From assembly GCA_036611895.1 (NCBI GenBank), contig GCA_036611895.1_4766.1: 64,000 nucleotides of DNA, one strand, 5' to 3'. Source of the DNA: a phage. The notes under the pieces are model-generated. The model was not told the origin of the DNA and made no database searches. It worked only from the letters and a program-made list of their open reading frames with translations. The translations under genes were made by a program, and so were the position numbers. This document shows, one piece after another, positions 14,087-31,297 of the stretch; position 1 is the first letter of the stretch, and the number at the start of each line of letters is the position of its first letter.

Positions 14087-14100
14087 TAAAATCTCCAGTA

Positions 14101-14894: not shown

Positions 14895-15120
14895 AGCTTA
14901 TTTCCTCTTCAAAGATAGCCTCACTTTATTATAAGTGAGGCTATTTGAACAGGCTAGGACTGGTTCTTATACCATTCCCCGAACTCTTTCATTGCATCTT
15001 CTAAGGACAAGCCTTCAAAGAATTGACCAAAGTGTCCGTTGTACGTCACACAAATCCTTGTAACGGTTTACTTTAGGGGTGTGATTACTTCCCGTATAAC
15101 CACCTTATCAATGCTAATCA

Positions 15121-17181
15121 TTACTTAGTAGCCTTGATCAGCTTGGTAGCTAACTTAGTTTCTTCTTCAGTCAGTCCCATTGCAGTGAATGACTTCTTAG
15201 CATGACGCTTATAGTCTTGCAGAGCATGGCCTTTCTGATAGTCAGAGTACGTCGTATCGTTAAGGATGCTACGCAGATTATCAGCGTGTTTACCAGACGG
15301 AGCTACTTTAGTGGCAGCAGCAGAACGTGTAGGTTTAACTGTCTTATCCTGCTTAACAGCTTTAGGTTTACCAATAGGTTTAGCTGTATAGGTAGCACGT
15401 ACATCAGCAATCTTAGCTACTACATCACTACCTACACCGAATGCACCCCAAGGCTTTCTGGCTTTGGAACGCAGTTCTACCAGAAGGTCAGCAGCAGCTA
15501 ACTTATCTTCCGGTGTTGTTGCATTAAGGAACTCTTTGACTAGTTCCTGGATTTGTTCTTTCACAGTAGGAGCCTTCTTAATAGCAGGTTTAAGGTCAGT
15601 AGCTTTCACTGGTTCAGCAGCTACAGCTTCATTCAGCGACTCTTCCATGTTCAGCGCTTCTTTGCTAGCGACTGTACGGAATTGTTCTACAGAACCAGAT
15701 GTGAGATTAGTGTATTTGAGGTTAGTACCACGATGACCACCAACCATAATAAGTGTGGTAGGTGAACTATGGTTCCCAACGATGGCATCATTAAGCAGCT
15801 TCTTACCTACCTCTGTCTTAGACAGATAGATACCGCTGTTAACGTTAAGACGTTCCTCTTCCGGTAGTTCAGCAATAATATGATATGCAGATACACGCAT
15901 CTTATTGGTGCTGTACTCAGGAACAGCAAATACATCTTCAGGTGCTACTTTACCAAGGATAGTTACGTCACCACCGAAGCTACGGATATAGCTCATGGAT
16001 GCTACGTGCAGACCGTTAGAACAATCCTGACGACGGTCAGGGTCTACCAGGTCTTCACGTACCTGAACTTTACAGCCTACCCATTGACGAATTCTACCTG
16101 AGTGACAGTCAACGAATACACGTCTACCATTTTCTGCGTCTTTATACTTCAGACGCTTCAGGAACAGGATTGAACCATCATCAGCAATAGGTAGCTCAGC
16201 AGTTTCCATGAATTTCATCAGGTCTTCTACTGAGTGCAGACGGTCTTTAATAACCGGAGCCAGACGCTCAAGGAACTTAGTAAAGCCCTTGTAGTCTTTC
16301 AGCTGGGCAGACTGACGTAGATGACGATGCAGGTTTTCAACTCCGGGGATAACCCCATTATTGGTAACAGCAACAACCACTTCGTCTTCCTTCACTTCGG
16401 TGTGAAAGTTAGCATCATCAGTACTGATAGCACCTAATGCAGCCAGCTTCTCAGAAGCAGCAGCCAGCTTATCCTGGTTCGTAGTTTTAGCTATTTCTAC
16501 ATAAGGAGATGGCGTTACATCACGACTGGTAAATACAATGTGTACTCCTTTGATGTGCTGAGCTTGTTTAGCAAACTCACTCATTTCATCATCGGATACT
16601 GCACGAATTGCAATAGGCCATTCTCGTGCAAGGATACGATTGGTATGGTCATAACCCCAACTCAGTACGTCATTGATAAAACGAACCAGTGCAGGATGGT
16701 TATGGTCCTTATCCCAGCCAGTAACCCACATCAGGTTTTCACGTCTGTCGTAGAAACCATCAGATACAGTTACTTCTGGTTCATTAGCCTGTACAGCCAG
16801 GAAGGTATCCATAGCTTTAGATACTAACGTCTTAGTAGGATTGCCCAGCTTAATATCTGAGACGATATGTGCAGGAGGAACACCTGTACCATCCTGGAAG
16901 AACTCTTTAAGTTTAGCTTTAGCTACCTTGAAGAAACGGACGAATCCGTTGGTGTTCTTCTCTGCTTCTAGATACTCAGTACGTAATGCTACTTCTGGCG
17001 CAATGTTTACTTCTACCAGGTCTTTGGTGGTTCCCAGACCTTTGGTTTGTGCTTCAGATACAATGCGAGCAACCCGTGGGTCGTTCTGAGGATATACAAT
17101 TGTGGAGCCATCAGGCTTCCACAGTGTGAGGTTACGACTGTCAACTGCCAGTGCGATGATAGAAATCAGTTCGATTTTCAT
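15121..17181 (-). CDS. rIIB: rIIB-like protein
   Basis: 686-aa ORF immediately downstream of the rIIA-like gene; assignment mainly by pairing and size. Confidence 0.4.
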   Translation of the reverse strand: MKIELISIIALAVDSRNLTLWKPDGSTIVYPQNDPRVARIVSEAQTKGLGTTKDLVEVNIAPEVALRTEYLEAEKNTNGFVRFFKVAKAKLKEFFQDGTGVPPAHIVSDIKLGNPTKTLVSKAMDTFLAVQANEPEVTVSDGFYDRRENLMWVTGWDKDHNHPALVRFINDVLSWGYDHTNRILAREWPIAIRAVSDDEMSEFAKQAQHIKGVHIVFTSRDVTPSPYVEIAKTTNQDKLAAASEKLAALGAISTDDANFHTEVKEDEVVVAVTNNGVIPGVENLHRHLRQSAQLKDYKGFTKFLERLAPVIKDRLHSVEDLMKFMETAELPIADDGSILFLKRLKYKDAENGRRVFVDCHSGRIRQWVGCKVQVREDLVDPDRRQDCSNGLHVASMSYIRSFGGDVTILGKVAPEDVFAVPEYSTNKMRVSAYHIIAELPEEERLNVNSGIYLSKTEVGKKLLNDAIVGNHSSPTTLIMVGGHRGTNLKYTNLTSGSVEQFRTVASKEALNMEESLNEAVAAEPVKATDLKPAIKKAPTVKEQIQELVKEFLNATTPEDKLAAADLLVELRSKARKPWGAFGVGSDVVAKIADVRATYTAKPIGKPKAVKQDKTVKPTRSAAATKVAPSGKHADNLRSILNDTTYSDYQKGHALQDYKRHAKKSFTAMGLTEEETKLATKLIKATK

Positions 17182-17185
17182 CAGA

Positions 17186-19753
17186 TTAGTTACCTTTCAG
17201 TTTATTTAGACGATTACGGTAGATGGACTTAAACCCAGGAATATCCTCTGGATTATTCTTAAGGTGTTTGACCAAACTACCTAAGTCCAGCGTCTGTAGA
17301 ATGTCATTCTTATTCCAGTTATAACTGAATAATCCTTTGTAACCTTTCAGTATTTCAAAGTACTTATGGTTACGGGGGTTAACCATCATTGTATACGGTT
17401 CTAGGTCATCTACTGATTTAATACAGCCCATTTCAACAAGTTTTTCTTTGTTGTTATGTGGTCGATTTCGTAGAAAGTCATATGCCCATTCATACTCTGG
17501 TTTAAAAATCAGATTCTGTAATGGTTTGAAGGTTAGGCCCAGTATGTCTAGAATTTCCCAATACTCTCTGTCATCCAGTCCTACGTATTCCAGAATACCA
17601 ATACGGTGTTCAGTAACATATTTCTTGAAGCCTTTACTGGTAATAACTGGCATCAGCTCCATAAAGCGAACATCATCAATGTGGATAGCACCACGTCGTT
17701 TAGCCTTGTTAGCTTCGATTTGATTTCGGCAGACAACTGTCTCTGCTTTCATCTCATCGGATAACTCATACCATTTCCACATGGTTCCAATTCGAGCAGT
17801 TACTGGACTACCAGTACCAACCTGATTAGCCAGTACATAGTACTTAGGCTGTTCTACCTCAACGAAACCATATTTCTCATGGAAGCTCGGGTCAGCAAAA
17901 CCTTTGTCAATGTAAGGTTTAGAATCCCAATCACCACTTTTATTCCGTACAGAAGTAGTACCAAGAACTGCATTCAATGAAATCAGAGCATTGGTTTTAC
18001 CTCCTGCTTTGGTTTTATTGGCAGCTATTGTCTTAGCACGTTTCTCAGCAGCTATCTTAGCCTGTTCTCTACGGTAGTTAGTTGGTTTGTCCCACTCATT
18101 ATATTGAGTAAGGTCAATTACCCGATAACCCATAGCAGTGAACTTAGCTACAGCCTCTTCTGCTGCACCCTTCTTAGGACCAACGACGTGAACAAAAGCT
18201 GTACGCTCCAGATCACCTCGGTTGTATTCAGGGAAGTATGAGAAAGAGTCTGCACAATCAGATAAACGTCGGGTAACTACAACGTTCTTGGTAGTGAATA
18301 TGCCGATACCCTGATGGGAGGTATGGTACATCTTAAAGTAGTCTGTAAGTTTACCTTTCACCAAGTCTACAGAATTACCCTGGTTCATTATGTAACCAGA
18401 CCACTTAATACCAGAGATTTTTAAAGCAGCAATCTGAGGTAAGTGCAGATGGCGATATACTAATTCATGGAATGGGGAGTATGTACTTTCTTTACGAGTA
18501 TCCTTAAGAGCACGCATAGCCTTACCATACAGTTTTTTAAGACCTGCATATTCAGGACGAGCTAACAATGCTTTATTGGATAGATTACGCCAATGCTTGA
18601 TGTGATGCTTACGCTGCTTAGCCCACAAACTAGAGGACATATAGCGTTGAACAATTGGGTCTGTAACAGCAAGCAAGAAAGACGGATAGGTCCAGAAGCA
18701 GGTAGAGGATTTAGAAGCATATTCTTCAACCTGCTTAATAGCATCAGGAATTTTAGCCTTAATCTCTTTCTCCATACGGTCTACTAAATCTACGCATAGA
18801 GTAGTAATACCATCATCAGTTAACTTCTGGTTAGACAGCGTTTCCCGACTAGGAGCAATAGCTAGAGTATCCGGTGCAGCCTGAACTACTAAATTGTCAG
18901 CACCAATAATATTCATAAAGTTGAGGATAAGACCTACAGCTTCTTCACTAGCCGGGCTGGATACTATTGGGTACATTACGTTACCGTAGCGAACGTATAT
19001 GTTACTACTCCCCATATAGCCCTGATACCATTTATCAGACATATCATATGAACCAGGTTCAAATGACATACCTAACGTATCCAGTAAAGTGTAGTCGCCT
19101 TGCTGAATACTAATACCTGTTTCTGTTTTAACGAGTTTAGTAGTACTTAGTTCAGCCTTAATCTCTCCATTGAACACAATAGACTTGATGTAATGTACAA
19201 ATGTATTTACATCATGCTTACCCAGTTGGAATTTAACTTCCAGACCAGATTCCTCAGTGGGAATACCAGTAATAATAGGAACAATACCCGGTTTACCGTC
19301 ATTCTCAATTGCAGCCTTAGCTACGTTATATACAGACATCTTTCCCTGGTTCCATGAAGTAACCTGGAAGCTATCTGTATAAGCGAATGGGGATTTACAT
19401 CCCAGACCAAAGCCACCAGTAACACTACTGTTGGCCTTCTTAGTAGATGCACCATAGACACCATAAATGGAACCAATGAGTTCATCCGGGATTCCGTTAC
19501 CGTAGTCACGGAAGGTAATAAAGTTGTCTTTATCAATGGTAATACGAATAGGGGTATCAGTCTTACCTGCCTCAATATGAGCATCCCAACTGTTACAGAT
19601 AGTCTCACGGACTACTGCCAGAGTAGGATTGTTATACAAGGAAGTACTTAATACATGGAAGAATGCCGGGTCATCAGAGATGCCAAAGGCAATTGTTTCT
19701 TTACCACCCAGTGTCGCTGAGGTAGCTACTTCATTGGTATCTGCAACTAACAT
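17186..19753 (-). CDS. rIIA: rIIA-like protein with N-terminal GHKL (Bergerat-fold) ATPase domain
   Basis: N-terminal NSWDAH and DYGNGIP motifs match the GHKL N-box and G1-box pattern; 855 aa. Confidence 0.55.
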   Translation of the reverse strand: MLVADTNEVATSATLGGKETIAFGISDDPAFFHVLSTSLYNNPTLAVVRETICNSWDAHIEAGKTDTPIRITIDKDNFITFRDYGNGIPDELIGSIYGVYGASTKKANSSVTGGFGLGCKSPFAYTDSFQVTSWNQGKMSVYNVAKAAIENDGKPGIVPIITGIPTEESGLEVKFQLGKHDVNTFVHYIKSIVFNGEIKAELSTTKLVKTETGISIQQGDYTLLDTLGMSFEPGSYDMSDKWYQGYMGSSNIYVRYGNVMYPIVSSPASEEAVGLILNFMNIIGADNLVVQAAPDTLAIAPSRETLSNQKLTDDGITTLCVDLVDRMEKEIKAKIPDAIKQVEEYASKSSTCFWTYPSFLLAVTDPIVQRYMSSSLWAKQRKHHIKHWRNLSNKALLARPEYAGLKKLYGKAMRALKDTRKESTYSPFHELVYRHLHLPQIAALKISGIKWSGYIMNQGNSVDLVKGKLTDYFKMYHTSHQGIGIFTTKNVVVTRRLSDCADSFSYFPEYNRGDLERTAFVHVVGPKKGAAEEAVAKFTAMGYRVIDLTQYNEWDKPTNYRREQAKIAAEKRAKTIAANKTKAGGKTNALISLNAVLGTTSVRNKSGDWDSKPYIDKGFADPSFHEKYGFVEVEQPKYYVLANQVGTGSPVTARIGTMWKWYELSDEMKAETVVCRNQIEANKAKRRGAIHIDDVRFMELMPVITSKGFKKYVTEHRIGILEYVGLDDREYWEILDILGLTFKPLQNLIFKPEYEWAYDFLRNRPHNNKEKLVEMGCIKSVDDLEPYTMMVNPRNHKYFEILKGYKGLFSYNWNKNDILQTLDLGSLVKHLKNNPEDIPGFKSIYRNRLNKLKGN

Positions 19754-19780
19754 TTATTTACTCTCCAGATTAAATGTTGC

Positions 19781-20044
19781 TTACATTAGAACTTGTTTAC
19801 ACTTATCAAAAATAGCTTTACGAAGTTCAGCTTCTTCCCGTGGTTCATCATTAGGATGGTGACCCAGTGGACTGTTTTGAAAAGCATTCATTAGGAATAA
19901 GACCTGATACTCGGTTAAACCATTAATCTGAATGCTATACGTTTTCTCTGAGGCGATATTTACATTAGCCATTGCGTTTACCTGCCATTGCTTGAAGGAC
20001 AAATACAGCCAGATCTGCTGCTTGGTCATCACTAACTGGATCAT
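19781..20044 (-). CDS. hypothetical protein
   Basis: 87-aa ORF; overlaps the upstream ORF, so the real start is probably internal. Confidence 0.3.
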   Translation of the reverse strand: MIQLVMTKQQIWLYLSFKQWQVNAMANVNIASEKTYSIQINGLTEYQVLFLMNAFQNSPLGHHPNDEPREEAELRKAIFDKCKQVLM

Positions 20045-20342
20045 TACCGTGCCCTAATTGAATGTGACCTTCATCATCCCATTCATCAAGCATACGCTGT
20101 ACTTCGGACAAACCGGCTTGAATCATTTCCTTGCTTGGTTCTAACCATAACTTACGTTCCTCTGCCAGTGCAGCAATGCACATACATAGAGAAGCGATGT
20201 TAGCTGGACAAGCAGCAATATCACCAGTTACTGCAATCTCACTAAGTGGGACAGCTTTACCGGTTTTACTATGAATTACTTCGGGGTTAATCATGAATTT
20301 GCTCCAGGTTATGGGCAGGAATAGGGAAGCATGGATAGTCAC
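19965..20342 (-). CDS. hypothetical protein
   Basis: 125-aa ORF. Confidence 0.4.
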   Translation of the reverse strand: MTIHASLFLPITWSKFMINPEVIHSKTGKAVPLSEIAVTGDIAACPANIASLCMCIAALAEERKLWLEPSKEMIQAGLSEVQRMLDEWDDEGHIQLGHGNDPVSDDQAADLAVFVLQAMAGKRNG

Positions 20343-20499
20343 CGGTAGGGTCCAGTGTTACTGACACATGCAGTGTATTGGTCATTTGGGTTAACATTTG
20401 AGCAGCATTGAAATCATCCTGGATACAGGCATATACAATGTCACCCTTCTCACCCTCACACATTACAGGTGTGTCTTTGATACGGTATTTAGCAGGCAT
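20287..20499 (-). CDS. hypothetical protein
   Basis: 70-aa ORF; 56-nt overlap with the next gene. Confidence 0.3.
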   Translation of the reverse strand: MPAKYRIKDTPVMCEGEKGDIVYACIQDDFNAAQMLTQMTNTLHVSVTLDPTGDYPCFPIPAHNLEQIHD

Positions 20500-20508
20500 A
20501 TTGTTTCC

Positions 20509-20763
20509 TTATTTTTTACTGATAATGGGGTTTTTGTAATTCCAGGCTCTACTAAGTTTTTCCAACTTAAATCCTGCATACCCTGCTTCTTTAGACAGGA
20601 TTTCTTCCGCAGTGTCTATTGCGTTAATTTTGCATAAACGCCCATCTATACAGATATTTTTAAAACTGCCTGTGGATTCTCTGTATATTCCATTGGAATC
20701 TTTCTCCAACATAGTTGCATACCAACTTGCCATAAGTCCTCCTGGGACAGTAATTGAAACCAA
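20509..20763 (-). CDS. hypothetical protein
   Basis: 84-aa ORF just downstream of a terminator. Confidence 0.35.
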   Translation of the reverse strand: MVSITVPGGLMASWYATMLEKDSNGIYRESTGSFKNICIDGRLCKINAIDTAEEILSKEAGYAGFKLEKLSRAWNYKNPIISKK

Positions 20764-20787
20764 AAAAAGACCTCCCGGAGGAGGTCT
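20762..20787 (-). terminator. rho-independent terminator
   Basis: Plus strand AAAAAAAGACCTCC-CGGA-GGAGGTCT, so minus sense is an 8-bp stem followed by T7. Confidence 0.65.
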
Positions 20788-20792
20788 TAGGT

Positions 20793-21029
20793 TTACTTAC
20801 TATTTTCTTCAATGAAGCGTCTCATACGTTCTTTTGCTTCATCATGCTCTTTAATAGCTACATAGTCTCGTGCATAGTAATATGCACACCATAAGCCAAT
20901 ATCACATGCAGAGAAGCGAGCCGCTACGAAGAACATCTCTTCCAGGCTCTGAGCATTGTGTAATGAAAATACAAATTCCAGAACCAGGATGATACTTACA
21001 ATCATTGCTTGGATAGCTAGTTTTTTCAT
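20793..21029 (-). CDS. small membrane protein
   Basis: 78 aa with an N-terminal hydrophobic helix (LAIQAMIVSIILVLEFVF). Confidence 0.4.
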   Translation of the reverse strand: MKKLAIQAMIVSIILVLEFVFSLHNAQSLEEMFFVAARFSACDIGLWCAYYYARDYVAIKEHDEAKERMRRFIEENSK

Positions 21030-21970
21030 TCAGTAATAGTCTCACCTGGGATTAGCTTACGGAATTGGATAAAGTGAAGCAGGTTACCTGAGTACAGATT
21101 CCCCTCTTTATCCATGGAGGTAACACCTTGTTCCCAGGTAACTGGGTTCATATTATTCACGTACTTCTCACCAAGGTTCATAGGGGTAGCCTGATGTTCT
21201 GTTGGGGAAGCATGAATAGGTTGGTTTTCCACTAATTTAGCAAATAAGCCAAGGTCTTCTTCGATAGTAGAAGGTCGTCCTTCAAAATTGTTATAGGAAG
21301 CACGAGCACAACGTGCAGCACTTACTTTAAGAAGTAGTCCATGCACTTCTGCATCACTTGGTTCATCGCGTGTAATTCGATTACGTTTGCAGAAATTGTA
21401 AGCCCCAACACGGTCAATATGAGCAATGTACGGCATATGCCATTGTCCATATGGTAATGCTCTTGGTGTACTTTCTTCATGTGCCTTACGCATTGCTTGA
21501 GCCAGTTCACGAATTTCTGGTTGAGCATCTTTGTGGTCACGCAATCCATAGAAATTAGCCCAGCTTGTTGAAGTTACCACTACACGAATATGTGTGAATG
21601 GTTCCAGAATACGGTTAACAATCTGCTTATGTACTTGCCCACGACGTAGCTGTTCAGCATACACAGCAGCAGCAGATGCAGCGTTATCCCAGATAAATTT
21701 GGCATCCTCAATCTCCATAGGAGTGAGTTCTTCCTCTGCCTGCATACCTTTCTGGTTCTTGCCCCAGTGACTTGGCATCACTGGTTCATTACGAACCTGT
21801 TCGATGAACTTAGAGGTAGGAATAGCACGACTGCTTGAAGCATTGCGGTTAAATACACGGTGGGTCATAAACTCACTGTGAATGAATCGGGGATAAACCA
21901 ATTCAAAGGTTGTGATACGAGTTCCTGTTTCTGGATGAACGGAATCTGCAATTACTGATGCCTTAATCAT
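21026..21970 (-). CDS. thyX: flavin-dependent thymidylate synthase ThyX
   Basis: ThyX-type motif HRVFNRNASSSR (RHR-x7-S pattern) in a 314-aa ORF. Confidence 0.8.
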   Translation of the reverse strand: MIKASVIADSVHPETGTRITTFELVYPRFIHSEFMTHRVFNRNASSSRAIPTSKFIEQVRNEPVMPSHWGKNQKGMQAEEELTPMEIEDAKFIWDNAASAAAVYAEQLRRGQVHKQIVNRILEPFTHIRVVVTSTSWANFYGLRDHKDAQPEIRELAQAMRKAHEESTPRALPYGQWHMPYIAHIDRVGAYNFCKRNRITRDEPSDAEVHGLLLKVSAARCARASYNNFEGRPSTIEEDLGLFAKLVENQPIHASPTEHQATPMNLGEKYVNNMNPVTWEQGVTSMDKEGNLYSGNLLHFIQFRKLIPGETITE

Positions 21971-22413
21971 TAGAATGACCTTAGATAGTTGGTGATACCA
22001 CTTCTCGTCTCTGTGATTCTCTTAACCTGAACATATACCAGCTTAAACTCACTACGAGGTAGTTCTTGTAATACTGCTACACCTTCAGTAAGAGCCACAG
22101 AACACGCTACAGCGGTTTCTTCTTTAAAGGAGTACAAGTCTTCATACATGAGGGCTTCATACTCTTTACGTAGCATACAGAGAGCATTTCTTGCCTTATC
22201 ACTTACTTCTCGTGAACCAGCAGACATAGCTAAGCTGTATATGATAAAGACTTGTTCAAAAACAAAGTCCAGTAATCTATCAGGATTGTTAGTCCCCATG
22301 AATAATTTTGTTATGTAGGAACGAGCTTTACGGTTGAGTTCATACTCATCCTCTATGCCTTTATTATACAGAACAGGATTTCGTTCCCTTTTTCTTAAGA
22401 ATGGGATACGCAT
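21970..22413 (-). CDS. hypothetical protein
   Basis: 147-aa ORF; start overlaps the upstream stop. Confidence 0.4.
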   Translation of the reverse strand: MRIPFLRKRERNPVLYNKGIEDEYELNRKARSYITKLFMGTNNPDRLLDFVFEQVFIIYSLAMSAGSREVSDKARNALCMLRKEYEALMYEDLYSFKEETAVACSVALTEGVAVLQELPRSEFKLVYVQVKRITETRSGITNYLRSF

Positions 22414-22793
22414 TAGTATTTACTACCTCTTCTATACCAGGGGTAGTGATGGGTAGTACTTTTGCCTTTGAACACGTCCTTAGTACGGGGGTTCTTTTGT
22501 ATTTGAGCCAGATAAAGTTGTGTGTCATCCCCACATGGATTAAGCCAGAACTTATCTATGATTCGGTCTACCTTAGATTTCAGATGAGGTTCTGGGGGAA
22601 TATATGAAGGAAAAGGTCTGCTAGTAGTCCATCCTTTTTGAACAAGAACCTGCATTGTTGTGTAAAGATCTAATACATTTTCATTCTCCACTTGGTCATG
22701 GATAGTTTTACCCAAAGTGAGCATTGCAGTTTGTTCTAGCTTACTTAAGTCCAGCCCATACAAGATAGACTTACCATTTCGTCTGTTTGACAT
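22413..22793 (-). CDS. hypothetical protein
   Basis: 126-aa ORF. Confidence 0.4.
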   Translation of the reverse strand: MSNRRNGKSILYGLDLSKLEQTAMLTLGKTIHDQVENENVLDLYTTMQVLVQKGWTTSRPFPSYIPPEPHLKSKVDRIIDKFWLNPCGDDTQLYLAQIQKNPRTKDVFKGKSTTHHYPWYRRGSKY

Positions 22794-22809
22794 AAGAGTA
22801 CCTATAATT

Positions 22810-22835
22810 AAAAAAGCCCACGGGTTAGGTGGGCT
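22810..22835 (-). terminator. rho-independent terminator
   Basis: Plus strand AAAAAAGCCCAC-GGGTTAG-GTGGGCT; minus sense hairpin followed by a T-run. Confidence 0.55.
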
Positions 22836-22910
22836 TGGGTTAGGAGATGGATAAGCAATGAGCTGGAAGCAACTTCCACAAGCACCACTATATAATGATG
22901 CTTAGGTTAG

Positions 22911-23189
22911 TTACTCTGCTTTACTGCCACCATTGGTTTGAACAACAGTTACATTTGTAACCTGGTTCTGACCTTTGTTGGACAGTGCCCAAATCAGTGC
23001 TACTACCCAGAATACCAGTGACCAGCCTAATACGATATTAAGCACACCAATGCCCCACTTAGAGGCATGGCCTCGTGCAAAAGCAATGATAGTAGGGATA
23101 AGGTATACAGCTAATACAAATAACAGAACAAGGATTGCTGCTAAAGATTCCATGATGGTTCCTATGTGGGGTTGAGTTAGTTTCTTCAC
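22911..23189 (-). CDS. superinfection-immunity-like small membrane protein
   Basis: YLIPTIIAFARGH...NIVLGWSLVFWVVALIWAL matches the Imm-type pattern; two predicted TM helices. Confidence 0.6.
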   Translation of the reverse strand: MKKLTQPHIGTIMESLAAILVLLFVLAVYLIPTIIAFARGHASKWGIGVLNIVLGWSLVFWVVALIWALSNKGQNQVTNVTVVQTNGGSKAE

Positions 23190-23226
23190 AAATAGCCCAA
23201 CAGTGCTGGGCTATTTAGGCAGCTAC

Positions 23227-23436
23227 TTACTCAGCATCTTTGCTTGCAGGAGCAAGGGCTTTCTTCAGGTAATTACGTACTGAACGATAGGTTTCTTTGG
23301 TATCCAAAGTACCATCATTTACAAACGAAATACGCGCGCAATCAGACTGCGGAATCTGTTGCACTGCAATCACATTTGCAGCATTAATGGTTAAACGTAC
23401 ATCTGAGGTTGCATGGGTTACTTGAAATACTGACAT
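23227..23436 (-). CDS. hypothetical protein
   Basis: 69-aa ORF. Confidence 0.35.
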   Translation of the reverse strand: MSVFQVTHATSDVRLTINAANVIAVQQIPQSDCARISFVNDGTLDTKETYRSVRNYLKKALAPASKDAE

Positions 23437-23445
23437 GAGTTTTCC

Positions 23446-23952
23446 TTATTTGCTGCTTCTTGCAGCTACTGGTTTGTTTTCCTGGTTCTGATACTTACCA
23501 TTGTAATTAGCAGGTTCTTGAACCAGATGAAATAATACTTGAGCTATCCCAGCACCAGCCGGGATATGCAATTTCTTACGACCATGATAGACCAATTCAA
23601 GGGTGAGATACCCTTTCCATCCTGGTTCTATTACGGTATTGAACACTGATAATGCACGTCTTGCCCATGTAGACTTATCGTGAACTATAGCTACGCAGGA
23701 CGGGGACATGTTGAACTTCTCAATTGCTGAAGCCAATGTGAATTTACCGAAATGGCGTGATACTTGATTTCCATCAACAACCTTCACCATTGGAATCAAT
23801 CCAAATAAGCGATAGAAGGTAATATCTTGTTTGATACGAATATCATAACCAGCTTCACCCAATCCATAGCTTACACCGTGTTCAGATATCTTACGGTCTG
23901 GGACATCCAGCAACTGGGATGAACGATATAGAGAATTACCATTAACAACCAT
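23446..23952 (-). CDS. dcd: dCTP deaminase family protein
   Basis: NTVIEPGWKGYLTLEL and KSTWARRAL motifs typical of the dCTP deaminase/dUTPase fold. Confidence 0.75.
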   Translation of the reverse strand: MVVNGNSLYRSSQLLDVPDRKISEHGVSYGLGEAGYDIRIKQDITFYRLFGLIPMVKVVDGNQVSRHFGKFTLASAIEKFNMSPSCVAIVHDKSTWARRALSVFNTVIEPGWKGYLTLELVYHGRKKLHIPAGAGIAQVLFHLVQEPANYNGKYQNQENKPVAARSSK

Positions 23953-25127
23953 TATTTCATTCCTTTAGGGATATGAACTACCTCCCCAAAAGGTACGGTA
24001 GCATTGGGATTATTCAGAACACACCAGATGATTGGAATATCAAATGGCAATTCTTCCATTGGACGAACATACATATCGGAGAATATGATTGCAGCGGTTG
24101 GCTTATTCTTAATAATCCAATCTCGTACAGGCACAAGGCTTGTACCACCACGACCTGTAATCTTAATCTCTTCAAAAGTATCTTCTTCAGTGATGTCTAT
24201 CTCTTCTTGAATAATATCGTCGAAAGTAATTAAGGACATCTTCTTAGGGTTGAACTGGCTTTTAACGTAGGCAACCTCTGAGTTAAAACGCAGAGAGTCA
24301 GCACTACTAATAGAACCAGATACATCCTCAAAGTAGGCTAAGTGACGTAGGCGTCCTTCATCATCTTCCAGGGAAGGTAGATAAATATCAGTGTAACGAC
24401 GGTTAGGTCTGGCCCACGTATAGTGTGTGTCATCAATGTCGGTAAAGAAGTTCATGAGAACTTCCTGCCAAGGAACCACTGGTTTAAGGAATTGGGTAAT
24501 GACCTCTTCCATACGACCAGCACCCTTACCGGGCATCTGTCCACCAGCCATCTTCTGGCTCTGCATTGCACGTACTACGTTGTTGACTACAGCACCCTGG
24601 GACTGTCCCGAAGTGGGGGATTTCATGTCGCCAGCAAGACCTGCTCCAGCACCCCCTGACGGCTTCTGCCTTTTCTGAGGGTTCTTCATCAGGTCATCGT
24701 AGATGTCTTCTTCGACCCATCCTTTATATTGCGGGTCTTTGCAAATGCCTTCATCAATGCCAGTGAACTTGTAGCCATCTTCTTCTAACTGAAGGTTAAT
24801 GAAGTGGTCACAAGCCTGGTTCCATACTTCTGGGTCACGGCTTCCACGACGGATGTCATGTAGATATGCTACATGCCATAGTTCATGCATTAATACTGTT
24901 TCTCTTGCATCTGGACACATCCAGATAAAGAAATCAGGATTGAAATGGAGTTCTATCCCATCAGTACATGCAGTGGGACAATCCTCACGTTTCCATGAGA
25001 ATTTAAGACTACACAGTAATGAACCAAAGAACGCAGCAGACTTGCCCAGAAAGGCTTGGGCCTGAATACGGTCATACTCACGCATGAGTTGTTCATCACT
25101 AAGTGTGTGCTGAGGAAATTGGTTCAT
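23952..25127 (-). CDS. vWA-domain protein with zincin-like HExxH motif
   Basis: MHELWHVAYLH (HExxH) in the N-terminal half; partner of the adjacent MoxR-like ATPase. Confidence 0.5.
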   Translation of the reverse strand: MNQFPQHTLSDEQLMREYDRIQAQAFLGKSAAFFGSLLCSLKFSWKREDCPTACTDGIELHFNPDFFIWMCPDARETVLMHELWHVAYLHDIRRGSRDPEVWNQACDHFINLQLEEDGYKFTGIDEGICKDPQYKGWVEEDIYDDLMKNPQKRQKPSGGAGAGLAGDMKSPTSGQSQGAVVNNVVRAMQSQKMAGGQMPGKGAGRMEEVITQFLKPVVPWQEVLMNFFTDIDDTHYTWARPNRRYTDIYLPSLEDDEGRLRHLAYFEDVSGSISSADSLRFNSEVAYVKSQFNPKKMSLITFDDIIQEEIDITEEDTFEEIKITGRGGTSLVPVRDWIIKNKPTAAIIFSDMYVRPMEELPFDIPIIWCVLNNPNATVPFGEVVHIPKGMK

Positions 25128-25134
25128 GTTGTGA

Positions 25135-26187
25135 TTATCCGTGAATGTAACGAGAGATGTTAGCAGCAGCCTTACGCCATTCAGGGGTAGCCTGAAGTTC
25201 TGGTAATGCTCTGCCTACTGTACGGAAGTACAGAATCTTATGGGTGAACGTTTTAAAGCGTTCAATGTACTGAAGAACTTCAGCGAAATTCTCTTCAGTA
25301 GTTTTGTTAGCCAGATGGTTAACGGTAGCCCAGCACAGGTTGTTATCTTCCGGTAATGCACAGCCCAGTGGGTCTTTGACTACCTTCTCAATCGTAATGA
25401 TACGATTATATACCTGAGTAAACTGAACAAATTCTGTAGCTTTACCGGCAGTAACGTGTCCTGCATAGTAGATAGAATCTTCATCAGGCAGAGCACCTTC
25501 TGGTAGGTTCTTGAGGTCTTTATTAACAAAGTCCCAGGTACGTGGACAACAGAAAGTTTTGTTCTTATGTGCTGGGTCGAAGTCATGCAGGTAACCAGGG
25601 TTAGCATGTAAGAATGCAACCAGACGTTCATCCCATTGTTGGGGAATCATTACATCTTCAACAAAGATGTCGAAGTTAAGTTCCATCTCAAAGTGAACCA
25701 CACGAGACTGCATTGCAGTACCCAGAGGATTAACAATGGCACGGTCAGTAGCTTTGTTACCAGCACAGACAATCATCACATTAGGATGAAGTTTTTTCTG
25801 ACCAGTCATACGGTCTAGAATTAGTTTGTATGCAGCAGCTACCACTTCTTTCTTAGCTGAGTTGAACTCATCAAGGAACAGGAGCCAGCCATTATAACCT
25901 TCGGGTACTTCGTCTCCCTCAATGGGAAATAAGTCAGCGAATGGTATAAACTCTGCACGGTCACCATTACGGAATGGCAAACCAGACAGGTCTTCCGGGG
26001 CAGAAGTAGACAGACGATGGTCTATCAGTTTCATACCAAATTCTTCTGCAATAGAACGAATGATTGCAGATTTACCCATGCCTGGTGATGAAGTTAGGAA
26101 TGGTACGTTACCTGCTTTCAAAGCACGGATAATAAAGTTACGAGCTTGACGTGAATTACATACGGTCAAGGAGTCAATGCTTGCCAT
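25135..26187 (-). CDS. MoxR-like AAA+ ATPase
   Basis: Walker A SPGMGKS and Walker B LLFLDEFN. Confidence 0.7.
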   Translation of the reverse strand: MASIDSLTVCNSRQARNFIIRALKAGNVPFLTSSPGMGKSAIIRSIAEEFGMKLIDHRLSTSAPEDLSGLPFRNGDRAEFIPFADLFPIEGDEVPEGYNGWLLFLDEFNSAKKEVVAAAYKLILDRMTGQKKLHPNVMIVCAGNKATDRAIVNPLGTAMQSRVVHFEMELNFDIFVEDVMIPQQWDERLVAFLHANPGYLHDFDPAHKNKTFCCPRTWDFVNKDLKNLPEGALPDEDSIYYAGHVTAGKATEFVQFTQVYNRIITIEKVVKDPLGCALPEDNNLCWATVNHLANKTTEENFAEVLQYIERFKTFTHKILYFRTVGRALPELQATPEWRKAAANISRYIHG

Positions 26188-26221
26188 TTACTTACTCTCC
26201 TAAAGCTAATGGAATTACTAA

Positions 26222-26548
26222 TTAAGATTTAATACATGGGTATGCTGTATCAATCGCCAACAGAACCATGTCTGATGGCACTTTTATTGCATTAACCTTT
26301 CGGTCATACAGAATAATAGTGGCTACCTTGTCAAAGACATTTCCTAACTTCAAATGCTCTGGTACGCAGTTTTTTCCTGCTTCTACGCCCATAGTAACCA
26401 TGCCCATGAAATAACCCTGGTTCACAAAGTTTGCATTATTGGCTTTGTAGTCGGCAGCAGCATCCAACAAGGTTTCACGGCTAGATGCTTGGGCATTGAA
26501 TGACAGAACAGATAAAGCTACTACAGCAACAGCAATTAAAGTTTTCAT
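26222..26548 (-). CDS. secreted or periplasmic small protein
   Basis: N-terminal signal-peptide-like MKTLIAVAVVALSVLSFNAQA. Confidence 0.45.
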   Translation of the reverse strand: MKTLIAVAVVALSVLSFNAQASSRETLLDAAADYKANNANFVNQGYFMGMVTMGVEAGKNCVPEHLKLGNVFDKVATIILYDRKVNAIKVPSDMVLLAIDTAYPCIKS

Positions 26549-26734
26549 TTAGTTACCTTTTAATTGGTTTAGTTGAAGTACACCGATAGGGGTTAATGAC
26601 CACCCAAGACCAGCATTGAACTGTACTAAGCCCAGCTTCTTAAGAGACTGTGCGGTTTTGTTATTACGGTTGCTGGTGGCAGAACCACCTTGAACCATAC
26701 GAAGGAATATTGCTTGGGACTGGGTTAATTTCAC
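26549..26734 (-). CDS. hypothetical protein
   Basis: 61-aa ORF. Confidence 0.3.
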   Translation of the reverse strand: MKLTQSQAIFLRMVQGGSATSNRNNKTAQSLKKLGLVQFNAGLGWSLTPIGVLQLNQLKGN

Positions 26735-26991
26735 TCATCTTCTCCTTCATCTGGGAGTGGTGATAAATCTACACCTAAATGCTCAAAGCGTTTTTCTAAG
26801 ACAGCAATCCTCTTTTGATAAAATGACAGCAGTTCAGGAAGTATTCTTGTACGAGCTTGTGGTCCTAAATCCGTACCATTGAATGATACTTTCACCATAT
26901 GTGGTGACTTCTTCAAACTAGCTAATTGCTGTCGGTTGTCGTTGTATTCTTCATACAGTTTTTCAACCAAACGTAGATTATGAATATTCAT
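26731..26991 (-). CDS. hypothetical protein
   Basis: 86-aa ORF with stop/start overlap. Confidence 0.4.
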   Translation of the reverse strand: MNIHNLRLVEKLYEEYNDNRQQLASLKKSPHMVKVSFNGTDLGPQARTRILPELLSFYQKRIAVLEKRFEHLGVDLSPLPDEGEDE

Positions 26992-27209
26992 TTCTTCTCC
27001 GGTACGAACTGCATTACACAGTTTTGATTACGAGGGATATTAAGTTCACATTCATGTTTGAGGGTTTGTGTTACAGAGTTTGGAGTAGAACCAAAGTAGG
27101 TATTAGATATAGCTACAAATCCTGCACCTATTAAACCACCTAGCAAGAATGAGAAGAATGCAATCTCTTTATACATTTCCTGGCTCCAGATGTAGAAAAC
27201 CCCAGTCAA
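26988..27209 (-). CDS. small membrane protein
   Basis: 73 aa with a central hydrophobic helix. Confidence 0.35.
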   Translation of the reverse strand: MTGVFYIWSQEMYKEIAFFSFLLGGLIGAGFVAISNTYFGSTPNSVTQTLKHECELNIPRNQNCVMQFVPEKK

Positions 27210-27237
27210 TGCTGGGGTTTATCTATCAGTTTATACT

Positions 27238-27498
27238 TTATAGACCGTGTGGTCGGCATAGACTACCTGAACCAAAGGAACGATGTCCAAGTCGGCCCAG
27301 GATTAGGTTGCTTACTTCAGCAGCAGCACGACTGAATGCTTTAAAGTCAAAGACTACGATACCAAAGAGTGGGGCTGCGATAGCAGCTACCATGATTGGC
27401 GTCAGGTCAACCAGTGACATACCCAAGATTAAGTGAGCAGCGTAGGCAATAATACCCATTCCAACACCACAACCATATCCAATAGCAATTTTACGCAT
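27238..27498 (-). CDS. small membrane protein
   Basis: 86 aa, Gly/Ala-rich hydrophobic segments. Confidence 0.35.
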   Translation of the reverse strand: MRKIAIGYGCGVGMGIIAYAAHLILGMSLVDLTPIMVAAIAAPLFGIVVFDFKAFSRAAAEVSNLILGRLGHRSFGSGSLCRPHGL

Positions 27499-27555
27499 AG
27501 TTACCTTCTTAGTTAGTAGATTGATACATATTCATATAACAGACAAACAATAGTC

Positions 27556-27585
27556 AAAAAAAGACCTCCCTTCAATAGGGAGGTC
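27556..27585 (-). terminator. rho-independent terminator
   Basis: Plus strand AAAAAAAGACCTCCC-TTCAATA-GGGAGGTC; minus sense stem followed by T7. Confidence 0.6.
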
Positions 27586-27635
27586 AAGCTTGGGAGTTTT
27601 ATTTCAGGGTTTATAACCCCAAACAAAGGATACCC

Positions 27636-28469
27636 TTATTCTGCAACAGTAACAGGGATGGTTACATCGACAGTACCATTGGTAACTACTACAGAAGTAG
27701 CATCACCAGCAGCAACTGGTTTAACCGTCAGTACGTTACCAGCAATGGTAGCTGTAGCACGACCGGATTCTGGAGCAGTCTTGATAGACAAAGTACCGAC
27801 AGATGAGCCAACAGGCATAGCAACAATCGTTACGTTCTTACCATCAGTAGTATCAGCAGCAACAGACAGAGCCAGTGAAGCTGGAGTAGCTACCAATGAG
27901 CTTGCTTCGTAGTAGCCTACAGCCAGCAGCGACTCATCTTCTACAGTGGTTCCATTAGCATCGGTAACAATCACTTTGTAAGTACCAGCAGAAGCAGCTG
28001 TTACGCCATTAAGAGACAATGTTGCAGTAGCAGCGGATTCATTCTCACCTGAATCAATATCAGCGAATGCTGCACCAGCAGTATTAGTTTTGAATTGCCA
28101 TTTATAAGTAAATGGTGCTTTACCACCTGCTACATCAACATGCCAGTTAATATCCTCACCTTCGATAGCAGAGACTACACGAGGCAGTTTGGTAGCAATA
28201 GTCAGTCGTGGAGTAGCCTTCATCTCAATAGAGATAGCCTGCATATCCACGATGTTGTTAGGCCAGAAGCCTTCTTCAGCAGGGTTTTTGGCAGAGCGTT
28301 TATACAGCAGATCACGAACACCATGAAAGATAACTAAGCTATCTGGATAAGTGGCATCTGGATGTACAAAGGTTCCTACTTCTACGGAACCACCTGGGAT
28401 AGAGCCATTGGCATCCAGTACAGTTGCAACATTAGTGGTTTTGTTAAAACCTACTTTTAAAGTTGGCAT
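27636..28469 (-). CDS. Ig-like domain protein
   Basis: Thr/Ala/Val-rich beta-strand-like repeats (KVIVTDANGTTV, VTIPVTVAE); start moved to the ATG at 28469, which has a GAGGAAA RBS. Confidence 0.5.
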   Translation of the reverse strand: MPTLKVGFNKTTNVATVLDANGSIPGGSVEVGTFVHPDATYPDSLVIFHGVRDLLYKRSAKNPAEEGFWPNNIVDMQAISIEMKATPRLTIATKLPRVVSAIEGEDINWHVDVAGGKAPFTYKWQFKTNTAGAAFADIDSGENESAATATLSLNGVTAASAGTYKVIVTDANGTTVEDESLLAVGYYEASSLVATPASLALSVAADTTDGKNVTIVAMPVGSSVGTLSIKTAPESGRATATIAGNVLTVKPVAAGDATSVVVTNGTVDVTIPVTVAE

Positions 28470-28525
28470 ATCAATTTCCTCATAAGTAAATAGCAGAGTT
28501 AGTATACATGACAGATAAAAAAATA

Positions 28526-28545
28526 AACCCTCCGTTAAGAGGGTT
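28526..28545 (-). terminator. rho-independent terminator overlapping a stop codon
   Basis: Plus strand AAAAATAAACCCTC-CGTTAA-GAGGGTT. Confidence 0.5.
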
Positions 28546-28759
28546 AGTTGTTTACACAGTAGATAGCAAAAGCTATCCATCCTGCTATTACAAAGCAGCC
28601 TAGTGAGTATGCTCCATAGTAGTAATAAGCAAACTTAGACTTGTGGGCATGGACTATCGTAGACAGAACCAGTACAGATAAAACTATCAGTATTAGCTGA
28701 AAGATTACTTCAAAAGGGATTAGCATAGTTGTTACCTCCAAGCAAAAAATATGCCTCAC
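28544..28759 (-). CDS. small membrane protein
   Basis: 71 aa with two hydrophobic helices. Confidence 0.4.
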   Translation of the reverse strand: MRHIFCLEVTTMLIPFEVIFQLILIVLSVLVLSTIVHAHKSKFAYYYYGAYSLGCFVIAGWIAFAIYCVNN

Positions 28760-28783
28760 TCCCGAAGGAATGAGGCTAGTTTA

Positions 28784-30001
28784 TTAACTTAATGCATAGT
28801 CTGTTTCAAGAATGTCCTGCCAGAGGCTGTCATCCAGCTTACCAGCAGAGAACTCTTGTCCCAGTACCTGAGACAGGATGAAGCCTAGCAGGTCACTCTT
28901 AGCAATGTCAGACAGAATCTGATTGTACTGACGACGTAGGTCATTACCGTAGTTAGGATGGCAACGGAAGCAGTCATGTACAGTCATTACAGGGAATGGT
29001 TTCTTAGGCATAGTGTCAATCATATCTGCTACTACCTGATGGTCTACATAAGCAATAGTGCATGGGTCAAGATAATCCAGGATTGATACGGATAGGAAGC
29101 CAGATTTCTCATAATGGCTCCACAGCTCCTGTACTTTCTCCAGATTGCCTGCAATCTCCCCATATTCTGATGGACCATCCTCACAGAGTTCTCGCACAGC
29201 TTCCACTAAGTCACGGTCGAAGTTACAACGACGCAGCATCTCACGCACCACCATCCCATCAATAGAGTGGGTGATGTTAGCAGAGAGCATACGAGTCTTC
29301 TCTTCTGTGCCCTGAACCATACGAGTGATGTCGAATGGCTTACCTAAGAAGTTAACAGTCTGTACTTCAGGAATCATGACCTTAATGACAGCGTGGAAGT
29401 TGTCAGGCAGTACCCATACGTAACGGTTGGCATCTGGATTACCACATTGCAGTAAGAACTTGTTAAGTGCCCAAGGACCACTAGCAACAGTTTCCATTAC
29501 ATTCTCAAAAGTCTTGAGACGAATACCTTCACCGAATACTTCTTTAGGCTTGGCTTCTGAGCCGTAGAATGCAGTCATAACTGCCTGCTTAGTGTCACTA
29601 CGTTTAATACGAGATGCTTCACCAAGGATGTCCAGCATCTTGTGATAGATAACTGTATAGGCATCACGACGTAATGGCTTACCATTCTCTCCCATGTAGT
29701 TAACTACGTTACACAGTTCAGCAGCAGAACGGTCACCAGTCAGGCAAGCCAGTAACTGCAATCCGGATGATGTAGCATCCAGGGCTACGGCATAACCAAT
29801 AGGCTTACCTGCTTTCATATCTTTCCATGCATTTATACCTGCAAAGAACAGAGCAGAATCTTCAGCTTCATCTACCAGATTAAGCAGGTTAGCTTCGTTC
29901 TCATCGAACCAGGAGATACGCTCATCCCATGTCTTTTTATCTAAGCCATAGTTATTAGCAATATCTACTTTCAGGTATTCACGAGCGGTTAACAGTTGCA
30001 T
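28784..30001 (-). CDS. T7-like single-subunit RNA polymerase, catalytic subunit (N4 RNAPII large-subunit-like)
   Basis: LDATSSGLQ resembles T7 RNAP motif A (DGSCSG) and VHDCF resembles motif C (HDSF); only about 405 aa, so a split polymerase. Confidence 0.65.
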   Translation of the reverse strand: MQLLTAREYLKVDIANNYGLDKKTWDERISWFDENEANLLNLVDEAEDSALFFAGINAWKDMKAGKPIGYAVALDATSSGLQLLACLTGDRSAAELCNVVNYMGENGKPLRRDAYTVIYHKMLDILGEASRIKRSDTKQAVMTAFYGSEAKPKEVFGEGIRLKTFENVMETVASGPWALNKFLLQCGNPDANRYVWVLPDNFHAVIKVMIPEVQTVNFLGKPFDITRMVQGTEEKTRMLSANITHSIDGMVVREMLRRCNFDRDLVEAVRELCEDGPSEYGEIAGNLEKVQELWSHYEKSGFLSVSILDYLDPCTIAYVDHQVVADMIDTMPKKPFPVMTVHDCFRCHPNYGNDLRRQYNQILSDIAKSDLLGFILSQVLGQEFSAGKLDDSLWQDILETDYALS

Positions 30002-30058
30002 TTTATGTTCCTTTTGCTTCTTGGCTCTCCACTATGGAGAGCCTGCTTATTGGATTTA

Positions 30059-30172
30059 TTTACGTTTACGTTTACGTTTGGCCTCTGCCTCACGTTTGAG
30101 AGCTTCGTTAATACGCTTTAACACTAGTTCTCTGTGAGCATAGAAGTCAGCTACTGCACGATGATTAATCAT
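30059..30172 (-). CDS. Lys/Arg-rich micro-protein (37 aa)
   Basis: ATG with AAGGAG RBS about 10 nt upstream; ends ...EAEAKRKRKRK; contains (ACGTTT)x3; below the track cutoff. Confidence 0.35.
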
Positions 30173-30983: not shown

Positions 30984-31036
30984 CGCTTATTCTCCTAAAT
31001 ATGATTAATAACCAAAAGCTGCGGAGCAGCTATTAC

Positions 31037-31297
31037 CTAACGCTTAGTCCAAAAGGTAATACGAATACTGTTTTCATTACCGATGTAGTCGATGCGTACA
31101 TGCAGACCATTACCATTAAACTCATTACTTTTCTTCTGATAAGGCCAGACTAGGCTAGTCATAGGTATTTTGATGAAACCAGATATGTGGCCTAGCTTAG
31201 TACGACTCTTTAATTCATTTTGTAATGCACAATAGATGTCGTGCCGTGTGAGTGCTCTGGCTCTGACTTGAGCAGACCATAATTCTTCATATGTCAT
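31037..31297 (-). CDS. hypothetical protein
   Basis: 86-aa ORF. Confidence 0.4.
   Translation of the reverse strand: MTYEELWSAQVRARALTRHDIYCALQNELKSRTKLGHISGFIKIPMTSLVWPYQKKSNEFNGNGLHVRIDYIGNENSIRITFWTKR

What the first reader, a model, noticed from the sequence alone, without database searches (positions are those of the whole stretch)
22911..23189. Superinfection-immunity-like membrane protein
The 92-aa two-TM protein carries IIAFARGH...LGWSLVFWVVALIWAL, matching the pattern I recall for the Imm-type superinfection exclusion family. In a lytic phage this would block DNA entry by secondary infecting phages.
Basis: partly seen in the sequence, partly recalled or inferred. Interest (0 to 1): 0.4.

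Follow-up and report, generated by a model that had tools for sequence, protein, structure and literature searches.

The report
Known Imm-family exclusion gene, N4-like phage
This is a real small membrane-protein gene of the phage T4 Imm "superinfection immunity" family, already annotated as such in dozens of near-identical N4-like coliphage genomes, so it is ordinary; the one open point is what it blocks in a phage that has no tape-measure protein.

Summary
The ORF exists and the quoted motifs are in it. The true start is very probably the ATG at 23153, giving 80 aa rather than 92 aa. The protein matches Pfam PF14373 (Imm_superinfect) over the whole model at 61.7 bits against a cut-off of 27.9. 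T4 Imm itself scores 58.2 bits. It also hits PHROG 1039, "immunity to superinfection", at 4e-31. The two T4 Imm residues reported to matter for exclusion, R33 and W50, align to R27 and W44 here. Across eight relatives, dN/dS is mostly 0.04-0.22, so the gene is under purifying selection.

The window is a Gamaleyavirus, a G7C-like N4-like podovirus. The same gene is 98.8% identical in phage EC1-UPM. It is already annotated "putative membrane immunity protein" or "immunity to superinfection" in many public genomes, starting with G7C gp27.1.

It is an accessory cassette. It sits between gp27 and the operon terminator, has a long hairpin on each side, and is absent from N4 and from Gamaleyavirus phi G17.

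The function is inferred. I found no exclusion assay for any N4-like Imm. A 2026 preprint reports that T4 Imm binds the tape-measure protein, which podoviruses lack, so the target here is unknown.

The gene is already known and of low interest.

The parts
22911..23153 (-). imm-like CDS, 80 aa plus stop (MESLAAILV...GGSKAE), an Imm_superinfect (PF14373) family membrane protein. The Pfam domain covers residues 16-57.
23154..23189 (-). 5' leader. It was wrongly included in the 92-aa ORF. It holds the AGGAA Shine-Dalgarno sequence at 23159-23163. The GTG at 23187-23189 is not conserved as a start.
   Evidence: GTG is GAG in ECBP1 and out of frame in Moo19. Annotated starts.
23173..23233 (-). Long imperfect hairpin between the gp27-like gene and imm. 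Its core is AAATAGCCCAGCA/TGTTGGGCTATTT. It overlaps the gp27 stop codon and is probably an attenuating terminator or a regulatory stem-loop.
   Evidence: I1; dG -27.8 kcal/mol, z -4.75; the Moo19 copy differs in the stem yet still reads as a hairpin (by inspection). G7C record annotates a stem_loop here.
22868..22915 (-). Second long hairpin immediately after the imm stop codon. Its flanks resemble those of the upstream hairpin (GAGTAA...CTAA / TTGTGRAAG). Together the two hairpins bracket the imm cassette.
   Evidence: I2; dG -24.1 kcal/mol, z -4.85; phi G17, which lacks imm, has a single hairpin that looks like a chimera of the two.
22808..22836 (-). Canonical intrinsic terminator, AAGCCCAC-loop-GTGGGCTT followed by TTTTTT. 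It ends the gp24-gp27-imm transcription unit. The same terminator follows gp27 directly in N4 and phi G17.
   Evidence: PhAPEC5 record annotates a terminator here.
23227..23436 (-). Upstream neighbour: 69-aa homologue of N4 gp27, function unknown.
22413..22793 (-). Downstream neighbour: 126-aa protein whose C-terminus resembles N4 gp28 (...KSTxHxxPWYxR..). It starts the next transcription unit.

Best explanation
The gene encodes an 80-aa inner-membrane helical-hairpin protein of the T4 Imm family (Pfam PF14373).

The host phage is a G7C-like N4-like podovirus of genus Gamaleyavirus. The gene lies in the N4 middle-gene region, as the last gene of the gp24-gp27 operon, between a read-through hairpin and the operon terminator.

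By homology, the most likely function is superinfection exclusion. Once made, the protein sits in the cytoplasmic membrane and stops a later-arriving phage from opening its genome-translocation channel there, so that the second genome never reaches the cytoplasm. By the positive-inside rule the N-terminus and the variable C-tail would face the periplasm and the RGHASK loop the cytoplasm.

Shown here: family membership, conservation of the two residues reported to matter in T4 Imm, purifying selection, accessory (moron-like) status, and the operon position.

Inferred: the membrane topology, expression at the middle stage, the exclusion phenotype, and the target. The target is either the tape-measure protein of competing long-tailed coliphages, as in T4, or the inner-membrane part of the N4-type ejectosome (gp51 C-terminus plus the vRNAP N-terminal domain) of sister phages.
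For: Family and residues:
- PF14373 is matched full length at 61.7 bits against a cut-off of 27.9. T4 Imm scores 58.2 bits on the same model.
- PHROG 1039 scores 4e-31.
- BLASTP against T4 Imm gives 28% identity over 61 aa, E 8e-10.
- In a 9-sequence alignment covering myo-, sipho- and podoviruses, Y17, P20, R27, I35, W49 and W55 are invariant. W44 is present in 8 of 9.
- R27 and W44 align to T4 R33 and W50, whose alanine mutants weaken exclusion (bioRxiv 10.64898/2026.03.06.709160, read).

Protein properties and selection:
- There are two hydrophobic helices.
- dN/dS is 0.04-0.22.

Context:
- The gene is present in about 55 Gamaleyavirus and Moovirus genomes and is annotated as an immunity protein in many of them.
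- It is absent from N4 and phi G17 at the same locus, as expected for a dispensable competition gene.
- Its neighbours are N4 middle-region genes: an RNAPII subunit, a AAA ATPase, a DUF2201/VWA protein, dCTP deaminase, ThyX, rIIA and DNA polymerase A.
- A strong terminator lies just downstream.
Against: - No experiment on this protein or on any Schitoviridae homologue turned up in the literature searches.
- A 2025 preprint states that no superinfection exclusion system has been characterised for N4 (PMC12642591).
- The only known molecular partner of the family, T4 tape-measure protein gp29, has no equivalent in a podovirus. N4-type phages cross the envelope with gp52, gp51 and the gp50 N-terminal domain (PMC13434306).
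- PF14373 is a short hydrophobic domain of 42 positions, so family membership says little about specificity.
- The AF2 model has only moderate confidence, and structure search was uninformative.
Confidence: 0.65

Rival explanations
1. The protein belongs to the Imm family, but its main role is to protect the infected cell envelope from damage by secondary adsorptions. That would mean resistance to lysis from without or 'secondary traumatisation', and support of lysis inhibition, rather than a strict block to DNA entry.
For: T4 imm mutants show reduced resistance to lysis from without and premature collapse of lysis inhibition (review PMC6832632). N4 also shows lysis inhibition linked to superinfection (PMC12642591). 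The window phage carries rIIA- and rIIB-like genes a few kb away.
Against: In T4 these phenotypes accompany the DNA-entry block rather than replacing it. Gamaleyavirus lysis inhibition has not been documented in anything I read. N4, the phage with documented lysis inhibition, lacks this gene.
Confidence: 0.15
2. It is a holin- or antiholin-like small membrane protein that tunes lysis timing.
For: It is a small protein with two transmembrane segments. T4 Imm has been said to 'molecularly resemble a holin' (PMC6832632).
Against: It lies in the middle DNA-metabolism region, far from the late-gene region. In N4 the lysis cassette (gp60-gp63) lies among the late genes (PMC12642591). There is no hit to any holin family in Pfam or PHROGs. 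The family prototype is not a holin.
Confidence: 0.05
3. It is a hitch-hiking or decaying accessory gene with no current function in this phage.
For: It shows presence/absence polymorphism: absent in N4 and phi G17. It sits behind a strong hairpin that could terminate most transcripts.
Against: Purifying selection is strong, with dN/dS 0.04-0.22 across lineages whose dS reaches above 1. The Shine-Dalgarno sequence and ATG are conserved. The ORF is intact in the eight homologues I translated, and the locus is present in about 55 genomes.
Confidence: 0.05

Closest known systems
Gamaleyavirus 'membrane immunity protein': G7C gp27.1 (YP_004782154), EC1-UPM AGC31537, ECBP1_0031, Bas96_0062 and others
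   Same: It is the same gene at the same locus, between the gp27 homologue and gp28/gp29. Protein identity is 98.8% to EC1-UPM and 79-96% to the others. The flanking hairpin and terminator are the same.
   Different: There are a few substitutions. The window carries the 80-aa C-tail allele (NQVTNVTVVQTNGGSKAE) rather than the 86-aa allele of G7C, PhAPEC5, Bas96 and Moo19 (SQTTIVNVGSGNQYNVSQTSQSDK). No record in the phage collection reaches 99% DNA identity over the 481-bp stretch 22780-23260.
Phage T4 Imm (NP_049660, 83 aa), prototype of Pfam PF14373 / InterPro IPR016410
   Same: Both are small proteins that match the whole PF14373 domain. The Y-x-x-P...RG...W...W..IW motif is shared. T4 R33 and W50 are conserved as R27 and W44. 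Both genes are embedded among nucleotide-metabolism genes of a virulent coliphage.
   Different: Identity is only 28% over 61 aa. The hydrophobic segment before the domain is shorter (15 residues against 21). The C-tail is different and polymorphic. The host phage is a podovirus without the tape-measure protein that T4 Imm binds. The gene sits in an N4-type middle operon rather than a T4 transcription unit. Its function is untested.
Imm homologue of Escherichia phage Mangalitsa (Chaseviridae, Carltongylesvirus; YP_009850504)
   Same: It is the closest relative found outside Schitoviridae. Protein identity is 53% over the full length, including a similar Asn/Ser/Val-rich C-tail. There is even 69% DNA identity over 163 nt.
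   Different: The phage belongs to a different family (Chaseviridae). Leucine replaces the W44 equivalent. The genomic context is different.

Membership tests
Imm_superinfect (Pfam PF14373 / T4 Imm family) | Sequence match to the family profile above the curated gathering threshold, over the full domain | tested here: met
   61.7 bits against a cut-off of 27.9, model positions 1-42 of 42. T4 Imm scores 58.2 bits on the same model. PHROG 1039 scores 4e-31.
Imm_superinfect (Pfam PF14373 / T4 Imm family) | Small (about 60-100 aa) protein with two hydrophobic helices and no other domain | tested here: met
   80 aa. Hydropathy peaks at residues 3-26 and 33-57. AF2 helices at 2-26 and 30-62. No other Pfam hit reaches its cut-off.
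Imm_superinfect (Pfam PF14373 / T4 Imm family) | Conservation of the residues reported to matter for T4 Imm exclusion (R33, W50) | tested here: met
   They align to R27, invariant in 9 of 9 diverse homologues, and W44, present in 8 of 9. Mutant data come from bioRxiv 10.64898/2026.03.06.709160.
Imm_superinfect (Pfam PF14373 / T4 Imm family) | Inner-membrane location with the N-terminus in the periplasm | not testable with these tools
   The only support is the positive-inside rule: R27, H29 and K32 lie in the inter-helix loop, and the N-terminus is acidic. This is an inference.
Imm_superinfect (Pfam PF14373 / T4 Imm family) | Confers exclusion of superinfecting phage at the DNA-translocation step | not testable with these tools
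   I found no published assay for any Schitoviridae homologue. N4's exclusion system is said to be uncharacterised (PMC12642591).
Imm_superinfect (Pfam PF14373 / T4 Imm family) | Direct binding to the tape-measure protein of the excluded phage (T4 gp29 helical-bundle domain) | not tested
   This is known only for T4. The window phage is an N4-like podovirus. Its relatives use the gp52/gp51/gp50-NTD ejectosome instead (PMC13434306). The partner here is unknown.
Phage moron / accessory cassette | Gene present or absent between conserved neighbours in related genomes and bounded by its own regulatory structures | tested here: met
   It is absent between gp27 and gp28 in N4 and between gp27 and gp29 in phi G17. 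It is bracketed by two similar hairpins and followed by the operon terminator. No promoter of its own was identified.

The most novel reading that the evidence does not exclude
A tape-measure-less N4-like podovirus keeps a T4-type Imm under strong purifying selection. One possibility is that Imm-family proteins recognise a feature shared by all inner-membrane genome-delivery pores, including the N4 ejectosome (gp51 C-terminus plus the vRNAP N-terminal domain). The other is that this phage uses Imm as a cross-family weapon, shutting out long-tailed competitors such as T-even or Chaseviridae phages from the cell it has taken. The polymorphic, probably periplasmic C-tail (two alleles) could then set specificity.
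Probability: 0.3. Interest if true: 0.5.

Novelty: already known. Interest (0 to 1): 0.15.

Why it matters
It matters little as a discovery. The gene has been annotated as an Imm-like immunity protein in G7C-like phages since about 2012-2013, and the family is curated in Pfam, InterPro and PHROGs.

The residual value is practical and mechanistic. Gamaleyaviruses are used in phage-therapy and biocontrol cocktails. An active exclusion gene could cause interference between cocktail members.

Testing an Imm homologue from a phage without a tape-measure protein would show whether the TMP-binding mechanism just proposed for T4 Imm holds for the whole family.

Tried and rejected
- Foldseek of the AF2 model against BFVD gave no match with E <= 0.001. 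The best was E 1.2. This is uninformative for a small helical hairpin at pLDDT ~70.
- A sequence search of the PDB gave no hit, even at E <= 1.
- PADLOC and NCBIfam gave no hit.
- The 92-aa GTG start was rejected.
- I asked whether the hairpin-flank motif YTTGTGRAAGWWRCT is a repeated regulatory element. It has one match in 64 kb, against 0.38 expected by chance, so there is no evidence for that.
- A sigma-70 promoter for imm: none lies on the minus strand upstream of it. Sigma-70-like sites are depleted across the region, which would fit transcription by phage-encoded polymerases.
- N4 gp28 as a possible divergent Imm: rejected. Its sequence is hydrophilic and is instead related to the window's 126-aa ORF at 22413-22793.
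- The search for homologous proteins returned only close N4-like relatives (75 proteins, all PF14373). It added no distant members.

Full report
OBSERVATION. The minus-strand ORF at 22911..23189 is real, and its translation contains the quoted strings IIAFARGH and LGWSLVFWVVALIWAL.

The 92-aa length is an artefact of taking the first possible start codon. Twelve codons downstream, at 23153, is an ATG preceded by AGGAA with a 5-nt spacer. In relatives the upstream GTG is GAG (ECBP1) or out of frame (Moo19), while the Shine-Dalgarno sequence and ATG are kept. The GTG also lies inside the 3' arm of a conserved hairpin. Every public annotation I inspected starts at the ATG. The gene is therefore 22911..23153, encoding 80 aa.

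Hydropathy shows two hydrophobic segments, residues ~3-26 and ~33-57, separated by the basic loop RGHASK. AlphaFold2 on a 19-sequence alignment gives a helical hairpin, H2-26 and H30-62, with mean pLDDT 69.7.

The ORF is not a chance reading frame. Over the 61 collinear core codons of eight phages, dN/dS is 0.04-0.22 in almost all pairs, and dS exceeds 1 against Moo19.

WHAT IT IS. Pfam PF14373 (Imm_superinfect) is matched over its whole length, positions 1-42 of 42, at 61.7 bits (E 6e-17). The gathering cut-off is 27.9. T4 Imm, taken from NC_000866, scores 58.2 bits on the same model. It aligns directly with the window protein at E 8e-10, with 28% identity over 61 aa. PHROG 1039, "immunity to superinfection", scores 4e-31.

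I aligned nine sequences from different phage groups:
- Gamaleyavirus and Moovirus, the N4-like podoviruses.
- T4, IME08 and Klebsiella phage KP179 (Straboviridae).
- An Acinetobacter Obolenskvirus.
- A Salmonella Jerseyvirus.
- The Chaseviridae phage Mangalitsa.

In this alignment Y17, P20, R27, I35, W49 and W55 are invariant, and W44 is present in 8 of 9. A 2026 preprint reports that T4 Imm co-purifies with the helical-bundle domain of the tape-measure protein gp29. It also reports that R33A and W50A weaken exclusion (bioRxiv 10.64898/2026.03.06.709160). Those two residues align to R27 and W44 here.

WHERE IT IS. The window is about 93% identical over 4.2 kb to many Gamaleyavirus genomes, including ECBP1, St11Ph5, Bp4, IME11 and PE007. 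These are G7C-like N4-like podoviruses of the family Schitoviridae.

The neighbours are the N4 middle-region genes: an RNAPII subunit, a AAA ATPase (gp24), a DUF2201/VWA protein (gp25), dCTP deaminase (gp26), gp27, then imm, a gp28-like ORF, gp29, ThyX (gp30), rIIA and DNA polymerase A.

The same gene is present in about 55 phage records. It is annotated "putative membrane immunity protein", "immunity to superinfection" or "superinfection immunity protein" in many of them. The G7C record names it gp27.1, "similar to Imm of JS98". The EC1-UPM genome paper lists it with IPR016410 (PMC3853248). The EC1-UPM protein is 98.8% identical to the window's.

ANATOMY OF THE LOCUS. N4 has gp27-gp28-gp29 with no imm. 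Its gp28 is hydrophilic and is homologous to the C-terminus of the window's 126-aa ORF at 22413-22793. Gamaleyavirus phi G17 goes straight from gp27 to gp29. In G7C the order is gp27-imm-gp29, and in the window and EC1-UPM it is gp27-imm-gp28-gp29.

The DNA alignment shows that the terminator AAGCCCAC...GTGGGCTTTTTT at 22836-22814 is shared by all four genomes. In N4 and phi G17 it follows gp27 directly. So imm sits between gp27 and the pre-existing operon terminator.

Imm is bracketed by two long hairpins with similar flanks:
- 23233-23173: dG -27.8 kcal/mol, z -4.75.
- 22915-22868: dG -24.1 kcal/mol, z -4.85.

Phi G17 has a single hairpin that looks like a chimera of the two. The Moo19 copy differs from the upstream hairpin in the stem yet still reads as a hairpin, by inspection. 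There is no room for a promoter between the upstream hairpin and the ATG, and no sigma-70-like site lies on that strand. Sigma-70-like sites are depleted across 14-32 kb, with 14 found against 39.7 expected. I infer that imm is expressed by read-through of the hairpin, as the last and attenuated gene of a middle operon. Low expression would suit a membrane protein that the T4 preprint reports impairs growth at higher induction. This step is inference, not shown.

HOW IT MOST LIKELY WORKS. By homology the protein inserts in the inner membrane. The positive-inside rule suggests N-terminus out, loop in and C-tail out. It would prevent a later phage from completing genome translocation across that membrane.

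The target is the open question. T4 Imm binds a tape-measure protein, and podoviruses have none. N4-type phages build an ejectosome from gp52 (outer membrane), gp51 (periplasmic tunnel), and the gp51 C-terminus plus the vRNAP N-terminal domain at the inner membrane (PMC13434306). There are two possibilities:
- The Gamaleyavirus Imm acts on that inner-membrane complex of sister phages (homotypic exclusion).
- It excludes long-tailed competitors (heterotypic exclusion).

Its nearest relative outside Schitoviridae is the Imm of the Chaseviridae coliphage Mangalitsa, at 53% protein identity and 69% DNA identity over 163 nt. That suggests exchange among coliphages of different families.

The C-terminal tail is the only strongly variable part. 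It occurs as two alleles, an 80-aa type as in the window and an 86-aa type. If it is periplasmic, it is a candidate specificity element.

No experiment on any Schitoviridae Imm turned up in my literature searches. A 2025 preprint states that N4's exclusion system is uncharacterised (PMC12642591).

RIVALS.
- Envelope protection or support of lysis inhibition rather than a strict entry block. T4 imm mutants have such phenotypes (PMC6832632). However N4, the N4-like phage with documented lysis inhibition, lacks the gene.
- A holin-like role. This is unlikely from the gene's position and the absence of any holin-family hit.
- A functionless passenger. The dN/dS values contradict this.

DEAD ENDS. 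Foldseek against BFVD, the PDB sequence search, PADLOC and NCBIfam, and a scan for the hairpin-flank motif gave nothing useful. The large protein search returned only close relatives.

VERDICT. The gene is an already-annotated member of a curated family in a well-sampled phage genus, so novelty is "already known" and interest is low, at 0.15. The one point worth following is mechanistic: what an Imm homologue targets in a phage lineage that has no tape-measure protein.

Noticed in passing
window 22868-23233; L005 (phi G17) 2470-2700; L004 (N4) 4960-5200: The imm cassette is a presence/absence polymorphism. It is bracketed by two similar long hairpins. Phi G17 carries one hairpin that looks like a chimera of the two, and N4 has one hairpin and no imm. 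This looks like gain or loss by recombination between hairpin elements.
   Followed up: partly
window 22911-22973 (C-terminal 20 codons of imm): The C-terminal tail exists as two distinct alleles across Gamaleyavirus and Moovirus. The 80-aa type is ...NQVTNVTVVQTNGGSKAE and the 86-aa type is ...SQTTIVNVGSGNQYNVSQTSQSDK. St11Ph5 looks like a hybrid of the two. The membrane core is nearly invariant.
   Followed up: partly
window 14000-32000: Sigma-70 promoter-like sites are strongly depleted, with 14 found against 39.7 +/- 6.4 expected. Terminator-like hairpins are enriched, with 31 found against 12.3 +/- 3.1 expected. This would fit transcription by phage RNA polymerases.
   Followed up: no
window 22413-22793 (-): This 126-aa ORF shares only its C-terminal ~25 residues (...KSTxHxxPWYxRxxxY) with the 80-aa N4 gp28. 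It is missing from G7C and phi G17. It has no Pfam hit.
   Followed up: partly
L014 (Escherichia phage Mangalitsa, Chaseviridae) 182-436: Its Imm homologue is the closest relative outside Schitoviridae, with 53% protein identity, a similar C-tail and 69% DNA identity over 163 nt. This hints at horizontal exchange between unrelated coliphage families.
   Followed up: partly
L003 (T4) 5480-6625; L013 (KP179) 156-523; window 21026-23952: In T4 and KP179, imm lies next to the dCMP hydroxymethylase gene. In the window it lies between dCTP deaminase and ThyX. So imm sits next to pyrimidine-metabolism genes in unrelated phages. This may be coincidence.
   Followed up: no
public records matched (e.g. 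PV933157, PP175015, OY979416): Some deposited annotations at or beside this locus are implausible: 'flagellar and swarming motility protein', 'shikimate kinase', 'methyl-accepting/DNA response regulator' and 'virion RNA polymerase'. This looks like automated-annotation noise.
   Followed up: no
window 38875-39538: Gene orientation switches here. ORFs of 120 aa or more are nearly all on the minus strand from 99 to 38875 and mostly on the plus strand from 39538 to 61037. The window may therefore be circularly permuted relative to the N4 or G7C reference coordinates, with the genome ends or the early/late divergence point near 39 kb.
   Followed up: no
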